A DNA stretch of 64,000 nucleotides from Paecilomyces variotii (taxonomy: Eukaryota), in the NCBI GenBank assembly GCA_004022145.1, contig RCNU01000014.1. One strand, 5' to 3'. A program made the translations under genes and the position numbers. Shown one piece after another: positions 1-7,187 of the stretch. Position 1 is the first letter of the stretch. Every line of letters begins with the position of its first letter. The notes beneath the pieces are model-generated. The model worked only from the letters and a program-made list of their open reading frames with translations, was not told the origin of the DNA and searched no databases.

Positions 1-814
1 AATGCGACATCGTGGCGACCTTCTTCCCATGTTTCGGAAAGCATTTTGCCTCTCGACGGATCGATATATTCAATCAAAAGGTAGGGTGTTCCCAGTCCGG
101 TTTGATCTTTGATCTGATGTTGAACATAGGGGGACGGAGTCGGGTAGTTTAACCAACTCAACAACCGACGGCGCAGATGCTGCATGATGCGGGTTATAAA
201 AGGCAGGTTATCGAGAACAGTGAACTAGAATTGTAAGCGGCAAGTCCTCTTGGAAGACATGTAAACGGAGGTCATACAGTTTGGCCAGTGGACAGCCCAT
301 ACCCATAAAGCTGTGGAATTGGGACAGTTGGACAATTCTCTTGGAGCCATGCGTAGGTGCCAACTTCACAGCGGACCTTCTCATCCGCATTGCCTGGGCA
401 GCATTCCTCTCCAATCCGGTAAGGCAAGGGAAACCGCATCATCAATTGTCTCCGGGGATCTCGTCCTTGGCCATCAACATCAACTCGGATGCAGACGTTG
501 AAGCTGCCATGGATCCAGTCCTCCACATCAACAGTACGACATGCATCCGCGGAACGGAGGCCGAGATGATGGGCGACGGTTCTTTCTATCAGCTTGCGAT
601 TTCGGTACAGATGGGTAAAATATCGAATCTTCTGATCCCTATATCCCAACTGATGCAGGATATTAGCGTCTTGTTCCTTTGCGGCGGCGTATGTGATCTC
701 TCCGCGAAGCAAGCGACGTTTCCGCAGAGCAAGCGAATCATGGTCCTGAGACATTCTTCGCGACCGATGCCTTTGAAGGATGGAGTGGGAGAAGCCAACT
801 AACAGCTGATACAA
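1..814 (-). CDS. APH/phosphotransferase-family kinase-like protein, 5' part (runs off the left edge)
   Basis: ORF 272-814 has GSFNVCIRV...MMRFPLPYRIGE...EKVRCEVGTYAWLQENCPTVPIPQLYGYG, the typical N-lobe of fungal APH-family proteins. A GTATGA...CTAG intron (about 277-225) leads to exon 2 (FTVLDNLPFITRIMQHLRRR...). The start may be 814 or the later MSQD Met. Confidence 0.8.
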
Positions 815-2514
815 TTGAGATGAACAGGGCGGTGACTGTCACCTCGGGTAAACAATCTTCCTGTTCGAGCGACCTTGTCGATAGTCCCTGTCGATACGGG
901 CTTTTGGCTGATCATCCCTGATGAGGGACGACAGTCCGTAGTCTAGACCAGTACGTAGAACTAAGTTGTGCTGGCTGTTCCCGTAGCCACATAATTATAA
1001 TTATAATGGCATCGATTAACTAACTAGCCATAGACAATAGAGTGACGAACTCACCCATTGAAGGTCAAGTAACCTAGTACTGTACTCATTCCCGTTGGAG
1101 CCTGCCTACAAGCCGGCCTCCCTGCTGTCAGTTTCTCTCACGCCTTCTAGCTACAGCAACAGAGATAAATAGGCTGAGCTAGTTGTTAGAGAATTCAAGC
1201 TCAGCGAGCTTGGCTCCAGAATTCCAGTTAGGTGAAATACTTACCCAGTTAGGCCAATACTCCAAAGGCACAGTCAGGAACCGTTCATTATTATTCACCA
1301 ACTACCGTCCACTCCACGATATTCGATGCCAGTACAACCGCCTTTGGGCGGCCTCCATTGTCCTTGCGGTCCAAAATTGGTTCCACCCCTAAGCCAGGGA
1401 GTGTGACGATGGTCTGGGCATGGGTTTCTGCTGTTCCCTAATCCCACTAGTTCAAAATGCTTCCTTTGAACTGGTATTGGAGCCTTTTGCTAGGTTTTAT
1501 ATCATTGGGCAGATTATTTTTATTTGCTCTTATAGTCCAAAACTTTGATTAGAATTTGCCTAAGAAAAAGGTTGTAAACCAGCCGCCTGGGTTCTCAGAG
1601 ACATTCATCACCTTATTAGGATTATTTCATAATCTATATCGACAGCCGTCGCCCTCAAATATCTCCTATTCCTTCTCTGTCTCCGGGGTGGATCAAGCTG
1701 GCCCCCGCCGTGTAAATAGAAGGCGCCTCGTCTGGAAACGATTCAACTCTTGGGCTCAGTGCGTATCTGCATTGCTCTCTAGATCATGGCGCATAAGTAT
1801 AAATGATGATAGGGCCCAGCGCAGCCAGTACAGTTGGTTGATATCTTTGATGTTATAGCTCTCTTCCTGATCGTCTGGGCCATCATATGGCTGATCACTT
1901 AGGAGCCTCCGAAGAGAAACTACGATATATATGTCGTTCAGCGACTCTGTCCATCCCGGGTATGACTCAATTGATCTTTGTAGTACCGTGTGCTCGAAGG
2001 AGATGTGGGAAGTGTCAGGATGGAAAAGAGGAAAACCGGAAGAGGGAAAGGGAATCTGATGGAGTACTATACTAACTATAACTAGTCACCGCAGACGGTG
2101 GGGGCTACATTCAGCGTGTACCAATTGTATGTTTATTCCAACCTATGTTTGTTCCCTTGGTATTATGTAGTCATCAAGACTGACAGTCTGAGAAGCGTGT
2201 GTTACTACATAAGTTAAAGAATCTGCTCAAGCCAATCCTCTAGTTAAACATAGAGGGTAGCATACCACAAGACTACCTAGGTAATCAATATTAAGCGGAC
2301 CGTGACTAGTATATCTTCAAACGGAGCATGGTATACGTACAGTAAGTAAATCCTCGGGAATAACTTACTTCACCCCATTCCTTCAAAGGAGAGGCCCCTG
2401 AGCCAGCTCCCTTATGTCTGACTCCGATATTGTAGAGTAGAATGTCCGAAGCTGCGTCGCTTTTGGAGTTCAATGATGGTCCAAAAGAAATCAGGATTTC
2501 TTGGTAACCGTTCC

Positions 2515-2549
2515 TGACTCATAGTTGATCATAACTTGTCCCTGACTCA
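2515..2549 (+). promoter_or_regulatory. Tandem Gcn4/CpcA (cross-pathway control) sites upstream of acetolactate synthase
   Basis: TGACTCA at 2515-2521 and 2543-2549, each within a repeated CCTGACTCATA(G/A)TTGA unit, about 110-140 bp upstream of the ATG. Another TGACTCA lies at 1963-1969. Confidence 0.7.
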
Positions 2550-2656
2550 TAATTGACCGGAGAATCTTTCCCCCTTTTCCTTTGTTTCTCTTACCGGTTT
2601 CCCAACGTCTCTTTGTTCAATCCAATCCCCTGTTTGCCATCATTGGGTGATTCAAG

Positions 2657-4810
2657 ATGTTTCGAGCCCGGCAGGTGACTTTGGCGGCCAACGCCCAGGC
2701 GACCACTGCTCACCATCCACGGACTCTCGTTTCCAGACCCCTGGATCACGTCCTGAGGAAACAAATTATTAGAGGAACCGCCTCTGCTGCGACACATTCA
2801 ATGTATTTTACATATCTCTATTGCTGTTTCGTGCTTTTGCTTATCTGTGTACAATTACAGACCAACCAACGTGGCAAACGCGCACACCACAGATGTCGCT
2901 GCTCCGAGTCATCGTGTGCTGCCGCCGGCGGTTGATGAATCGTATGAGAGATTCCTCCCTGTACCACAGTTCGTGATCGCTAATGTTTGATATAACCCAA
3001 CAGGTTCATCGGCATGACGGGAGGCCAGATTTTCCATGAGATGATGCGTAGACATAACGTGAAACACATCTTTGGGTACCCAGGCGGCACCATTCTCCCA
3101 GTCTTTGACGCTATCTACAATTCCAAATACTTCGAATTTATTCTCCCCAAGCATGAGCAGGGCGCAGGGCACATGGCGGAGGGATATGCGAGAGCCTCGG
3201 GCAAGCCAGGTGTTGTCCTCGTCACATCTGGACCTGGTGCCACGAACGTCATCACGCCTATACAAAATGCTCTCTGCGACGGAACCCCTCTGATTGTTTT
3301 CTGCGGCCAAGTGGCCACTTCGGCCATCGGCAGCGATGCGTTCCAAGAAGCTGACGTATTGGGAATCTCCCGCGCATGTACTAAGTGGAATGTCATGGTC
3401 AGACATACATCTGAGTTACCACAGAGGCTGAATGAAGCCTTTGAGATCGCCACGAGCGGAAGACCGGGTCCCGTCCTTGTGGATTTGCCCAAGGATGTCA
3501 CAGCTAGTGTACTCCGACAGGCGATCCCAACTACTTCCGCCTTGCCCAGTCTACCGTTGGCTGAGATGCAGCAAGCCGTCCCGATAAAGACCATTGCTCG
3601 TGTGGCAGATCTGATCAATGGGGCCAAGAGGCCAGTCATCTATGCCGGTCATGGTGTCTTGAGCTCCAAGGATGGGCCTAGACTGCTCAAAGAACTCGCG
3701 GACAAGGCATCGATACCCGTCACCACCACATTGCAAGGACTCGGCGCCTTCGATGAGCTCGATGAGAAAGCTCTGCATATGTTGGGAATGCACGGTGCAG
3801 CTTATGCCAACATGTCAATGCAAGAAGCTGATCTCATCATTGCCCTCGGCGCAAGATTCGATGATCGCGTGACTTTGAACATCCAGAAGTTCGCGCCTGC
3901 TGCGAAGAGGGCTGAGACTGAAGGCCGTGGTGGTATAGTGCATTTTGAAATTCTACCAAAGAACATCAACAAGGTTGTCCAAGCTACGGAGGCTGTGGTT
4001 GGTGATATCTCAAAAAATGTTACCCATCTCCTGCCTCTTGTAAAGAAGACCACCATGGCAGATCGTTACGAGTGGTTCGAGAAGATTAAAGAATGGAAGG
4101 CACGGTGGCCTCTCAATCTATACGAATCTTCTGAGGAACGGTCACACTTGATCAAGCCCCAATATATTATAGAAGAGCTCAGCAACCTCACCGCCGATCG
4201 CAAACACGAGACCATCATCACCACTGGCGTTGGCCAGCACCAAATGTGGACGGCGCAGCACTTCCGATGGCGCTACCCATATACTATGATTACATCAGGT
4301 GGACTGGGTACTATGGGCTATGGTCTTCCTGCCGCAATTGGAGCTAAGGTGGCTCGGCCAGAGGCCCTGGTTATTGACATTGATGGAGATGCATCCTTCG
4401 GGATGACTCTCACTGAGATGTCCACTGCTGCTCAATTCAATATTGGCGTGAAGGTCATTGTTCTGAATAACGAGGAACAAGGTATGGTTACACAATGGCA
4501 GAACCTCTTCTACGAAGACCGCTATGCACACTCCCACCAGCGTAATCCTGATTTTATGGCATTCGCTAGAGCAATGCGTGTTCATCACCGCCGCATCAGC
4601 AAGCCAGAGGAGGTCACCGACGCCCTGACATGGCTCATAAATACTGACGGACCAAGCCTGCTGGAGGTTATCACCGACAGAAAGGTTCCAGTTCTTCCCA
4701 TGGTGCCTGCTGGGTCGGGTCTCCATGAGTTTATTGTGTTTGATGCCGAACAGGACAAGCGGAGACGAGACCTAATGCGTCAAAGAACTGCTGGATCTCA
4801 TGGAGAGTAG
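2657..4810 (+). CDS. ILV2: Acetolactate synthase (AHAS) catalytic subunit with mitochondrial presequence, ILV2-like, possibly an extra copy
   Basis: Exons 2657-2802, 2861-2941 and 3004-4810 join in frame (…VDES|FIGMTGGQIF). Motifs: HEQGAGHMAEGYARASG, TSGPGATN, RFDDRV, ThDP motif GDASF…NNEEQGMVTQWQ. The N-terminus is Arg/Ala-rich and acid-poor. Confidence 0.95.
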
Positions 4811-5756
4811 GCGTTCGAGTAATCTTTTTCTTTCTTCATCTTTCTTTTTTTCTGGGGAAGCGTATAAAAGTTATTGATAGAATCCGCTGCTGGTGTCGCA
4901 CGGATGGACGAGAATAAACATTAATTTTCAATAATCACCACCTGCATATGTACTGTATATATAGTTAACTGCTATAGTTAATAGACCGAACTTCCTTAGG
5001 ACTACTCTTCCTTGGCTATCTATCTTCAGCTTAGTTGTCGTCCTATAAATCTGCAGAATACGACCGCTGGAAGTCACTAAATAGTGATTATATATTCCGC
5101 CAAATTATAACTTTTGTTCATACTCTCGTCAGTAGCTTAAGAGTCTTCGTGTCATCTAACTGCATGGGAGATGTCCCTCAATTGTTTAGGATAGTCTCTC
5201 CTTAGTGATTTCCTTCCTTTTCTATGATGATTGGCTGCAGAAGGACTTCTTATATAGTGAAATTCTAGGTGAGTAAAGAGATAATTTTTTTCCTAGATAG
5301 ATTATCTTACTCCACGCCTATTTGTGACTGGTGCTTTCGAAAGTATCGCAACGTATTTATTAGTTATACGACATACTATAAGTTGCAGATAACCAAACTG
5401 TTAAATAACCCTGTGGTGTCTAGTACCGCTATCCAATTGACCGTATGATATATTCTTTCTGAGTTCATAAGAAAGCTGTAATCTTAACGGATAATAGGAT
5501 GGATAATGTGGAAGCAATCCCATGGCAACCAAGCTGGTATATAAATGAGACCCATTATAGGTAGTATCGAGTTCTGCTCGCCTTATCTGGTCATGGGAGG
5601 AGTCACGCACCACTACTCAGTGGCCGTTATGGGCCCGCCACTGCTGTTTCCCGGATCACCTCGCGACCCTAGGCTTGGAATATCAAACCCGGGAAATAAG
5701 CCAGCCTTCTTATTCTTCTTCTTCTTCTTTTTTTTTTTAAATACTTGTAGTTTCCA

Positions 5757-7187
5757 CTATAGCTTCGCTGCACGCTCCAAGAGATGCTTCATCTCCGAGT
5801 TCGGATACTCCACGTTTTGGGACGAATCCGGTCGCTGTCGATCCCAAGCCCACTTCTCTGCCAATTCGGGCGCAAGCTCGCCTTCAAGCATCTGTGTGAC
5901 GTACTTACCAAGTACAGGGAAGAACTTGAAACCGTGGAACGAACCGCAAGTTGCGACGTAGAGACCCTTGGAGGCAGAGTGAGGAGAAATGATAAAGTCA
6001 GAGGTAGTGGTGAAGGCGTCCCTATTGAGTGTTACATCCCATCCCACTTGTCATGTTAAGCATTGACATTGACGAGGGTACTCACCAGCAAATTCGATGT
6101 TTCGTCATCTTCCAAGTCGCACTCTCGGGCCCATACCACAGATTCCTGGCCTCGACAATGTCCTGCTTGAGAGGCCCAGGGACCTTCCACTGGTTGTAGT
6201 CGTGTGTGGGTGGTGGTGAGGAGATATAACGACCAGGCAATACCTCTTGAGTGTTTGTGAAGATCTTGGATCCCCACCACTTGAGCTCTCTATCCTTGGT
6301 AGGGGGAAGGGTACCAATAAAGGGCTTGCCTGTTGACAGTTGGCGGGCATTCATGCACATATGTCAGGAAAAAACTTACCTTCCTCGGGTGTGTAACCCT
6401 GGAAGCCAACAGGCATGTCTTTGAACTTCTTGTACAGCTCATCATCGAGCTGTGCCATTCCTGTCGCGATACCAGCAGCCAGAATTCGCTCTCCGGCTCG
6501 GAGGCCAGTGTTGCCACTCGTTGCAGCACTCCATTCCAGCAATGTGGGCGTGAAAGCACCAGCAGCGACGATAACATGCGTGGCCGATAAGATCTCTCCG
6601 GATTTCGTCTTGACACCGGTGCACGAATTACGACCGTCGAATTCCAAAGTGGCGACCTCAGCCGTCACATACTTGACGCCCAATTCCAGGCACTTTTTCG
6701 TGACTGCTCGAAGAGCATCTCCAGCAGCAGCCCACCCACTGGCCCTGTTTATGAGAACCTCCTTGACGCCGGTGTAGTCAGCATTGTCAAAGATCCCATT
6801 GTAAAGCTTCCGGGCCTCAGCGACAGGTAGGGCAATGATATCGTCATTGCGGCCGAGCTCCTTGTGATGGGTGATCACATTTTGCGCGTAGTCGCTACGG
6901 CAGTTCCAGTAGACGCCAGTCTGGTGGAAATAAGGCTGCCACAGAGGATCCGCCTTGAAAATGTCCTGAGCCTCCAGGGCCAGTCTGCAGTAGATCTTGT
7001 CGTCGTAGTCGGCGCGAACAACCTTGTTCCAATCCCATGAGGCAGCCACACGAGACTCGGCATCGTATGCATCCCGATCAACCAGAGTCACCGATGCATT
7101 GGGGTATTTCTGGATGAGATGATAGGCCGTTGACACACCAAAGACACCAGCGCCGATAATGAGGTATGAGGGATTGCCTGAGGCCAT
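5757..7187 (-). CDS. FAD-dependent amino-acid oxidase (sarcosine/pipecolate/fructosyl-amino-acid oxidase family), peroxisomal
   Basis: GAGVFG dinucleotide-binding motif, AASWDWNKVVRADY, spliced CW|DAFT, GSFHGFKFFP. Three exons (about 7187-6380, 6323-6086, 6021-5757). C-terminal AKL is a PTS1. Confidence 0.85.

What the first reader, a model, noticed from the sequence alone, without database searches (positions are those of the whole stretch)
3089..3316. Acetolactate synthase with substitutions at two classic inhibitor-resistance sites
Seen: GYPGGTILP (Thr, ACC at 3089-3091) where fungal AHAS normally has GYPGGAILP, and GQVATSAIG (Ala, GCC at 3314-3316) where yeast has GQVPTSAIG. Established: these align with plant Ala122 and Pro197 (yeast Ala117/Pro192) in the herbicide-binding tunnel, and A122T and P197A are known imidazolinone and sulfonylurea resistance alleles. 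The W574- and D376-equivalent residues are unchanged. Inference: a naturally inhibitor-insensitive AHAS. Caveat: I recall the Pro position varies in some filamentous fungi, so the Thr is the more unusual change.
Basis: partly seen in the sequence, partly recalled or inferred. Interest (0 to 1): 0.75.

Follow-up and report, generated by a model that had tools for sequence, protein, structure and literature searches.

The report
Acquired spare acetolactate synthase gene
The mould Paecilomyces variotii carries, besides its normal gene for the first enzyme of branched-chain amino-acid synthesis, a second and apparently horizontally acquired copy with changes at two inhibitor-contact positions, which may let it keep growing when rival fungi poison the normal enzyme, although resistance has not been measured.

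Summary
Both residues are real (yeast A117T, P192A), but the gene is not the housekeeping AHAS. The genome (Paecilomyces variotii by named homologues) has an ordinary Ala/Pro copy on another contig. The window gene is an intact, spliced, CpcA-box-bearing second copy from a patchy Eurotiales clade ('B'). It was probably gained horizontally: 92.6% identity to the Aspergillus glaucus B protein versus 83.8% for the housekeeping pair, and vertical descent is rejected by an AU test. No biosynthetic core gene was found within about 70 kb upstream or in the window downstream, so it is not a clustered self-resistance gene. P192A is unremarkable: the site is non-Pro in 148 of 232 housekeeping-type representatives, and is already linked in print to natural-inhibitor resistance. 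Thr117 is rare (1 of 228). It recurs in housekeeping-type enzymes of Hypoxylon strains that carry an ALS-inhibitor cluster, and of A. cristatus. Within B it could still be drift (19 departures at 353 conserved columns). Best reading: an accessory, starvation-inducible, less inhibitor-sensitive backup enzyme (about 0.5); the main rival is a relaxed isozyme. Resistance is unmeasured. The scan's earlier notes that I searched held nothing on this gene.

The parts
2657..2802 (+). AHAS-B exon 1 (start codon; basic N-terminal extension, likely mitochondrial transit peptide)
   Evidence: Gene model gives 677 aa identical to P0182; 7 R/K and 1 D/E in the first 45 aa; targeting inferred
2803..2860 (+). 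Intron 1 (GT..AG, 58 nt)
   Evidence: Skipped in the contig of run X1
2861..2941 (+). AHAS-B exon 2
2942..3003 (+). Intron 2 (GT..AG, 62 nt); same codon position (DS|F) as an intron of the housekeeping copy
   Evidence: sequence of L002 read
3004..4810 (+). AHAS-B exon 3: whole catalytic core, lacking the two downstream introns of the housekeeping copy
   Evidence: Pfam TPP_enzyme_N/M/C; TIGR00118 755 bits vs cut-off 538
3089..3091 (+). Thr at yeast A117 / plant A122 (residue 105 of the precursor)
3155..3157 (+). Catalytic Glu (yeast E139), intact
   Evidence: role recalled
3314..3316 (+). Ala at yeast P192 / plant P197 (residue 180 of the precursor)
3491..3493 (+). Lys at yeast K251, the residue that HB-35018 modifies covalently; unchanged
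3863..3868 (+). Asp-Arg at yeast D379-R380 / plant D376-R377; unchanged
4385..4471 (+). ThDP/Mg-binding motif GDA...NN, intact
   Evidence: invariant columns; motif meaning recalled
4496..4498 (+). Trp at yeast W586 / plant W574; unchanged
2515..2521 (+). TGACTCA, CpcA/Gcn4-type box (first of a 19-nt direct repeat pair spaced 28 nt apart)
   Evidence: CpcA consensus TGACTC in PMC10817288; binding not shown
2543..2549 (+). TGACTCA, second proximal CpcA/Gcn4-type box
1963..1969 (+). TGACTCA, distal CpcA/Gcn4-type box
6351..7187 (-). Neighbouring FAD-dependent oxidoreductase exon; context only, not shown to belong to the same unit
   Evidence: Pfam DAO; 88% to a Penicillium arizonense protein
272..754 (-). 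First exon of the left neighbour (522-aa protein, no family found); context only

Best explanation
The gene is an accessory mitochondrial biosynthetic AHAS catalytic subunit ('copy B') kept beside a normal housekeeping copy. SHOWN: it is intact and spliced, has its catalytic residues, lies outside any detected biosynthetic cluster, and belongs to a patchy Eurotiales clade of separate origin. STRONGLY INFERRED: P. variotii gained it horizontally from the Aspergillus section Aspergillus lineage. INFERRED mechanism: when a tunnel-binding inhibitor blocks copy A, Ile/Val starvation activates CpcA, which induces copy B through its TGACTCA boxes. Candidate inhibitors are natural ones made by competing fungi, such as the pterrespiramide/HB-35018 or chlorflavonin type. 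Thr117 narrows, and Ala192 loosens, the substrate/inhibitor tunnel, so B binds such compounds less well and keeps the pathway running. Thr117 probably costs some catalytic efficiency, which would explain why copy A keeps Ala. This is target-bypass defence, not self-resistance and not herbicide adaptation.
For: Second copy, 75% identical, with Ala/Pro on contig C1. TIGR00118 above cut-off. Spliced contig in X1. 23 synonymous vs 8 non-synonymous codons among the 32 coding differences that one search listed (40 of 76 differences were shown). Ala117 and Pro192 line the inhibitor tunnel: Ala-122 and Pro-197 are among eight plant resistance sites, and A122S/N are reported to give sulfonylurea resistance in yeast (PMC6843678 passages). 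P192 changes made up 75% of HB-35018-resistant yeast clones (PMC12947280 text). Its peer-review file says resistant species carry Val/Ala there, and that SdtC and A. terreus ALS carry Ala. C. neoformans AHAS has Ala192, and a cited paper title says it confers sulfometuron resistance (title only). Thr117 recurs in housekeeping-type enzymes: Hypoxylon CO27-5, EC38 and NC0597, the first two being listed carriers of the ALS-inhibitor pts cluster, where it is 1 of only 3 departures from conserved columns; and A. cristatus. Across clade B the tunnel sites carry T/S117, A/S/V192 and G/V200. 3 of the window's 7 TGACTCA lie in this promoter (P about 2e-4 to 7e-4). Transfer: B 92.6% vs A 83.8% to A. glaucus; AU p = 0.0008 and 0.0002 against the two vertical-descent constraints. 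An A. flavus AHAS deletion still grows on minimal medium (PMC11003189), whereas A. fumigatus ilv2-delta needs very high BCAA. That fits a working second copy in A. flavus.
Against: No assay of this enzyme or any clade-B member was found. Copy B is broadly relaxed (18-35 departures at 353 conserved columns in 11 B proteins vs median 1), so one classic site being hit has a 24% chance. The uniseriate Nigri B subclade has Ala117 (3 of 19 representatives, 7 of 32 members). Non-Pro at 192 does not give general resistance: harzianic acid inhibits F. oxysporum ALS, which has Val there; M. oryzae needs an edited allele for chlorimuron selection, and the Pyricularia protein has Val. Yeast P192S shifted HB-35018 potency only 4-fold, and K251, its covalent target, is unchanged. 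A117V strongly lowers yeast AHAS activity because A117 lines an O2 pocket (PMC5298238), so Thr may act on catalysis instead. CpcA control is normal for AHAS genes, and copy A also has a TGACTCA, so the boxes do not discriminate. Which copy AFLA_000930 is could not be determined. No inhibitor-producing competitor is identified.
Confidence: 0.5

Rival explanations
1. An ordinary accessory isozyme kept for extra flux or different regulation (dosage under amino-acid starvation, altered feedback by the single small subunit, altered O2 side reaction). The two residues are clade legacies of relaxed constraint and any inhibitor tolerance is incidental.
For: 19 departures at conserved columns, most away from the tunnel. 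Ala192-type variation is common. Thr is absent from one B subclade. A117 shapes the O2 pocket. CpcA boxes fit any amino-acid gene. One small-subunit locus was found.
Against: Thr117 recurs in otherwise conserved housekeeping enzymes, including those of ALS-inhibitor producers. Patchy retention and a cross-family transfer suit an ecological defence gene better than a dosage duplicate, although GCN to ACN is a single easy transition.
Confidence: 0.33
2. Self-resistance gene for an AHAS inhibitor that P. variotii itself makes from an unlinked cluster, as in Trichoderma, where the resistant ALS is encoded outside the harzianic acid cluster.
For: Precedent in the Figure 1 legend of PMC12616698. The genome has PKS-NRPS-like loci on other contigs, and the species has an aspterric-acid-type cluster aimed at the same pathway.
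Against: None of the 42 acetolactate rows in that paper's Data S3 is a Paecilomyces or a named clade-B carrier (single-genus families were excluded there). B is shared by unrelated species with different neighbours (RTA1-like in A. flavus, CAP10-like in A. fischeri, inferred from adjacent accessions). No AHAS inhibitor from this species turned up in my searches.
Confidence: 0.1
3. A weak or inactive enzyme that is decaying; Thr117 is a damaging change tolerated because copy A does the work.
For: A117V costs much activity in yeast. Many departures from conserved columns. Four same-species runs guessed to be RNA hold next to none of its words (no proof of absence).
Against: Intact frame in many strains at 98-100%, mostly synonymous variation, spliced transcript, all catalytic residues kept. 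Thr117 also occurs in housekeeping-type enzymes.
Confidence: 0.07

Closest known systems
Fungal biosynthetic AHAS catalytic subunit Ilv2 (S. cerevisiae 1jsc/1n0h, A. fumigatus 9yjz, PDB 7egv; TIGR00118)
   Same: Three ThDP-enzyme domains, catalytic and cofactor residues, N-terminal extension; best PDB matches at E <= 1e-258; above the TIGR00118 cut-off.
   Different: Second copy, 75% identical to the host's own Ilv2; groups with Sordariomycete rather than Eurotiomycete enzymes; Thr117/Ala192; two introns instead of four.
Cluster-encoded self-resistance ALS: PtsB/SdtC (pterrespiramide A = HB-35018), the chlorflavonin-cluster ALS, the harzianic-acid-associated ALS (PMC12616698, PMC12947280)
   Same: Duplicate ALS in a genome that has a housekeeping copy; Ala at 192 as in SdtC (peer-review file).
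   Different: No biosynthetic cluster around it; not among the 42 ALS rows of Data S3; resistance untested. PtsB, SdtC and CfoL sequences were not identified among my hits, so their relation to clade B is unknown.
Naturally variant housekeeping AHAS: C. neoformans Ilv2 (Ala192), A. terreus (Ala192), A. nidulans and Fusarium (Val192)
   Same: Non-proline at 192.
   Different: Those are housekeeping enzymes, and the two whose sequences I saw (C. neoformans, Fusarium) keep Ala117; here Thr117 is added, in a spare copy.
Target-site herbicide-resistance alleles at plant ALS Ala122 and Pro197
   Same: Same two columns; both are listed resistance sites. The specific alleles A122T and P197A are recalled, not seen in a call.
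   Different: Fixed across the P. variotii strains seen and shared with Aspergillus sections that diverged long ago, so not selected by herbicides; fungal context differs.

Membership tests
Biosynthetic AHAS large subunit (Ilv2, TIGR00118) | TPP_enzyme N, M and C domains and family score | tested here: met
   Pfam; 755.2 bits vs cut-off 538.35
Biosynthetic AHAS large subunit (Ilv2, TIGR00118) | Catalytic Glu, Gln202, Lys251, Asp379-Arg380, Met582, Trp586 and GDx...NN motif | tested here: met
Biosynthetic AHAS large subunit (Ilv2, TIGR00118) | Acetolactate-forming activity, mitochondrial import, small-subunit regulation | not testable with these tools
   Only a basic N-terminal extension was seen
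Housekeeping Eurotiomycete ILV2 orthologue | Groups with Eurotiomycete ILV2 and follows the species tree | tested here: not met
   AU p = 0.00017 against a B + Eurotiomycete-A clade; the orthologue is on contig C1
Cluster-encoded self-resistance ALS (PtsB/SdtC/CfoL type) | Duplicate of a housekeeping target gene | tested here: met
Cluster-encoded self-resistance ALS (PtsB/SdtC/CfoL type) | Lies in a biosynthetic gene cluster with a core enzyme | tested here: not met
   Nearest ketosynthase domains at C6:411.7 kb and 421.6 kb, more than 70 kb away across housekeeping-type genes; none of 30 condensation-domain matches on C6; no core-enzyme-like ORF seen in 60 kb upstream or in the window. Terpene cyclase, DMATS and NRPS-like models were not searched.
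Cluster-encoded self-resistance ALS (PtsB/SdtC/CfoL type) | Confers resistance to the cognate compound | not testable with these tools
   Needs an assay
Starship cargo gene | DUF3435 captain at the element's edge and terminal repeats | tested here: not met
   The 2 DUF3435 matches are on C45, none on C6 (lower bound); no convincing flanking repeats within C6:493-505 kb

The most novel reading that the evidence does not exclude
Clade B is a cluster-free, horizontally mobile 'alternative target' gene of Eurotiales moulds (Paecilomyces; Aspergillus sections Aspergillus, Flavi, Fumigati, uniseriate Nigri). It would give non-producers inducible resistance to competitors' natural AHAS inhibitors, like the acquired insensitive target genes of bacteria. 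Thr117 would be a convergent determinant that also arose in the housekeeping AHAS of inhibitor-producing Hypoxylon. It would predict species-specific intrinsic tolerance to AHAS-directed antifungals, and it flags Thr117 as a marker for finding producers of unknown AHAS inhibitors (for example A. cristatus).
Probability: 0.35. Interest if true: 0.7.

Novelty: new variant of a known kind. Interest (0 to 1): 0.45.

Why it matters
AHAS is being developed as an antifungal target, and fungi make at least three natural inhibitors of it (PMC12947280). Known resistant copies are tied to their producers' clusters. A spare, transferable, starvation-wired copy in non-producers would be the defensive side of that arms race. 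It would also matter for target validation, because named B members occur in A. flavus, A. lentulus, A. fischeri and A. fumigatiaffinis, while no A. fumigatus B protein appeared in my hit lists. It could explain why an A. flavus AHAS deletion still grows on minimal medium. If B is only a relaxed isozyme, the finding is a tidy case of fungal gene transfer and little more.

Tried and rejected
(1) 'Two herbicide alleles in the housekeeping enzyme': rejected; the housekeeping copy is Ala/Pro. (2) Clustered self-resistance: no core enzyme nearby. (3) Starship cargo: no captain on this contig and no flanking repeats. (4) The degenerate Thr-motif scan of metagenome contigs found 0 stretches, so no neighbourhoods of relatives could be read; synteny rests only on adjacent accession numbers. 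(5) GC3 of B (0.55) lies within the 0.54-0.70 range of 8 window genes and copy A: uninformative about transfer. (6) Other striking-looking changes were dropped: Lys in PKHEQ is also in yeast, and Leu at RVTL is the Sordariomycete norm, 107 of 113. (7) Runs X2 and X3 are RNA libraries, but their contigs are unspliced, so they count as DNA, not expression; X6 covers 9 of 30 bins and no intron; X21-X24 hold none of the words, which is no proof of silence. (8) The first constrained trees were run in fast mode and were redone with a fuller search; both rejected the constraints. (9) In one search my label put plant D376 one residue early; both Asp residues are invariant. (10) Paper searches for A117T/P192A in ILV2 and for A122T kinetics gave nothing relevant; Kingsbury 2004 is not held. 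(11) No structure or complex was predicted, since solved homologues align almost without gaps and a model could not show inhibitor binding. (12) Earlier-findings look-ups by sequence, place and words gave nothing on this gene.

Full report
OBSERVATION. The codons are as described: ACC at 3089-3091 and GCC at 3314-3316, in GYPGGTILP and GQVATSAIG. The alignment to yeast AHAS is ungapped over the first 160 residues, with Ala and Pro at these columns. The yeast peptide S239-K251 printed in PMC12947280 gives an offset of 87, hence yeast 117 and 192; the plant numbers 122 and 197 follow by the same spacing (offset recalled). E139, Q202, K251, M354, D379, R380, M582, W586 and F590 are unchanged.

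THE GENE. Exons 2657-2802, 2861-2941 and 3004-4810 give 677 aa, identical to a deposited protein named acetolactate synthase of Paecilomyces variotii. A contig of run X1 skips both introns exactly and spans 2553-4940, so the gene is transcribed in at least that run. It scores 755 bits on TIGR00118 (cut-off 538). Among the 32 coding differences that one search listed for runs X2/X3 (40 of 76 differences were shown), 23 codons change silently and 8 change the residue; neither focal codon changes. Three of the window's seven TGACTCA lie in its promoter (1963, 2515, 2543; P about 2e-4 to 7e-4). TGACTC is the CpcA consensus, and A. nidulans acetolactate synthase genes are CpcA-dependent (PMC10817288 passages). 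Copy A has one such heptamer too.

IT IS THE SECOND COPY. The genome has another AHAS, 75% identical, at C1:1376745-1378430, with Ala117 and Pro192 and four introns. That copy groups with Eurotiomycete ILV2. The window copy belongs to a small clade, B. A profile search put 18 clade-B cluster representatives above all other hits among the 120 listed of 8000 scored. Named members come from P. variotii, A. glaucus, A. ruber, A. hancockii, section Flavi, section Fumigati and uniseriate Nigri. In a 29-sequence, 574-column LG+G4 tree, B is one clade (98) on the Sordariomycete side of the tree (100), and P. variotii joins A. glaucus and A. ruber (100). Forcing B with Eurotiomycete housekeeping enzymes is rejected (AU p = 0.00017), and so is a clade of Aspergillus B without P. 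variotii (p = 0.00076). P. variotii and A. glaucus are 92.6% identical in B but 83.8% in A, although B diverges faster than A between Aspergillus sections (69-82% vs about 88%). No named B protein of P. lecythidis or P. variotii No. 5 appeared, whereas their A copies did. I infer a transfer from the section Aspergillus lineage into P. variotii. The older origin of B is open between an ancient transfer and an old paralogue, because no Leotiomycete or Dothideomycete sequence was in the tree.

NO CLUSTER. The nearest ketosynthase domains are at C6:411.7 and 421.6 kb, more than 70 kb away across housekeeping-type genes. None of 30 condensation-domain matches is on C6. These searches are lower bounds, and terpene, DMATS and NRPS-like models were not run. 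In Data S3 of PMC12616698, none of the 42 acetolactate rows is a Paecilomyces or a named B carrier, and none of the 9 Paecilomyces rows has ALS; that table excludes single-genus families. No Starship captain match lies on C6.

HOW UNUSUAL ARE THE RESIDUES. Of 319 proteins fetched by then, 283 passed a length and motif filter; the other 36 (too short, too long or lacking the motifs) were dropped. These are top hits of three searches, not a random sample. Position 192: Val 94, Pro 14, Thr 5 of 113 Sordariomycete-type; Pro 70, Val 43, Ala 6 of 119 Eurotiomycete-type. C. neoformans has Ala. Position 117: Ala in 227 and Thr in 1 of the 228 housekeeping-type representatives with a residue there; Thr 16 and Ala 3 of 19 in clade B (7 of the 19 are near-identical P. 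variotii proteins, 99-100% plus one at 98%, and one more unnamed at 99%). So Thr is a clade trait, not a peculiarity of this genome. On its own it is not beyond drift: this copy departs at 19 of 353 near-invariant columns against a median of 1, which gives a 24% chance of hitting one of five conserved classic sites. The better argument is recurrence. The one housekeeping exception is Hypoxylon CO27-5, where Thr117 is one of 3 departures. It is shared by EC38 and NC0597 but not by Hypomontagnella, and CO27-5 and EC38 carry the pts inhibitor cluster. That this protein is the housekeeping rather than the cluster copy is inferred from its tree position, its Pro192 and its contig length. A. cristatus shows a third occurrence. 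Cluster representatives hide such cases, so the 1 of 228 count understates them.

WHAT THE PAPERS SAY. PMC12947280 (main text parts 1-4 and part 3 of the peer-review file read; the main SI not held): 23 of 24 resistant yeast clones had ILV2 changes, 75% at Pro192, yet P192S shifted HB-35018 only 4-fold against at least 100-fold for four herbicides. The authors' reply states that resistant species have Val or Ala at 192, as do SdtC and A. terreus ALS; I did not see that passage in the Discussion served. PMC12616698 (parts 1-3 and Data S3): PtsB confers resistance in yeast, and the resistant harzianic-acid ALS lies outside its cluster. PMC6843678 (passages): Ala-122 and Pro-197 are resistance sites; A122T and P197A as such are recalled. 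PMC5298238 (passages): A117 lines an O2 pocket and A117V loses much activity. Against general resistance: harzianic acid acts on F. oxysporum ALS (PMC10755756 passages), and M. oryzae needs an edited ILV2 for chlorimuron selection (PMC6156577 passages); Fusarium and Pyricularia proteins have Val192. PMC9188596 (passages): plant P197L/T keep near-normal kinetics. PMC11003189 (Results part 1): an A. flavus AHAS deletion still grows on minimal medium, unlike A. fumigatus ilv2-delta; which copy was deleted is unknown. Searches listed no paper that describes this clade or the P. variotii gene; I saw only listings for most hits. Subscription papers (harzianic acid, chlorflavonin CfoL, C. neoformans ILV2, yeast mutagenesis) and two main supplements were out of reach and may bear on this.

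MECHANISM. Most likely (0.5), B is a working backup. Inhibition of copy A starves the cell of Ile/Val, CpcA turns B up, and its reshaped tunnel binds natural inhibitors less well, at some catalytic cost from Thr117. Gene structure, expression, conservation and position are shown; the transfer is strongly inferred; induction, activity, insensitivity and the ecological driver are inferred. Rivals: a relaxed isozyme with incidental residues (0.33), unlinked self-resistance (0.10), a decaying copy (0.07). I put the chance that B is measurably less sensitive than A to at least one tunnel inhibitor at about 0.7, higher than the chance that this is why it is kept.

VERDICT. A member of the biosynthetic AHAS family; not the housekeeping orthologue; works perhaps like PtsB/SdtC but fails their defining test of cluster location. 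New variant of a known kind. What remains is a spare, transferred copy and a recurring Thr117 with a cheap decisive test. Interest 0.45.

Noticed in passing
P0197, P0320, P0322 (Hypoxylon spp.): The housekeeping-type AHAS of three Hypoxylon strains has Thr117 with Pro192; two of them are listed carriers of the pts ALS-inhibitor cluster. Hypomontagnella, in the same 90% cluster, has Ala.
   Followed up: partly
P0372 (Aspergillus cristatus): The housekeeping-type AHAS has Thr117 where A. chevalieri, A. glaucus and A. ruber have Ala; A. cristatus is not among the 42 ALS-cluster rows.
   Followed up: partly
window 6351-7187 (-): The FAD-dependent oxidoreductase exon is 88% identical to a Penicillium arizonense protein, high for that distance; the stretch between the conserved flanks may be an island of acquired genes.
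   Followed up: partly
G000:C6:406000-428000 (L019-L021): Two adjacent polyketide synthase genes (one reducing-type, one non-reducing-type by my reading) with a Zn-cluster-like regulator and an MFS-like transporter, more than 70 kb from the AHAS gene.
   Followed up: no
window 7978 and 29296: Two of the other four TGACTCA boxes sit just upstream of a Glu/Gln-tRNA synthetase ORF (Pfam) and a His4-like ORF (my reading, not scanned), as expected for CpcA targets.
   Followed up: no
PMC11003189: An A. flavus AHAS deletion mutant still grows on glucose minimal medium; the paper does not mention a second copy in the passages I read, and A. flavus has a clade-B gene.
   Followed up: partly
P0323 vs P0174; P0374 vs P0217: A. 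glaucus and A. ruber are 99.3% identical in copy A but only 92.0% in copy B, so B evolves much faster or has moved within the section as well.
   Followed up: no
PMC12616698 Data S3: P. variotii is listed with an aspterric-acid-type cluster carrying a duplicate dihydroxy-acid dehydratase, two steps further along the same pathway.
   Followed up: no
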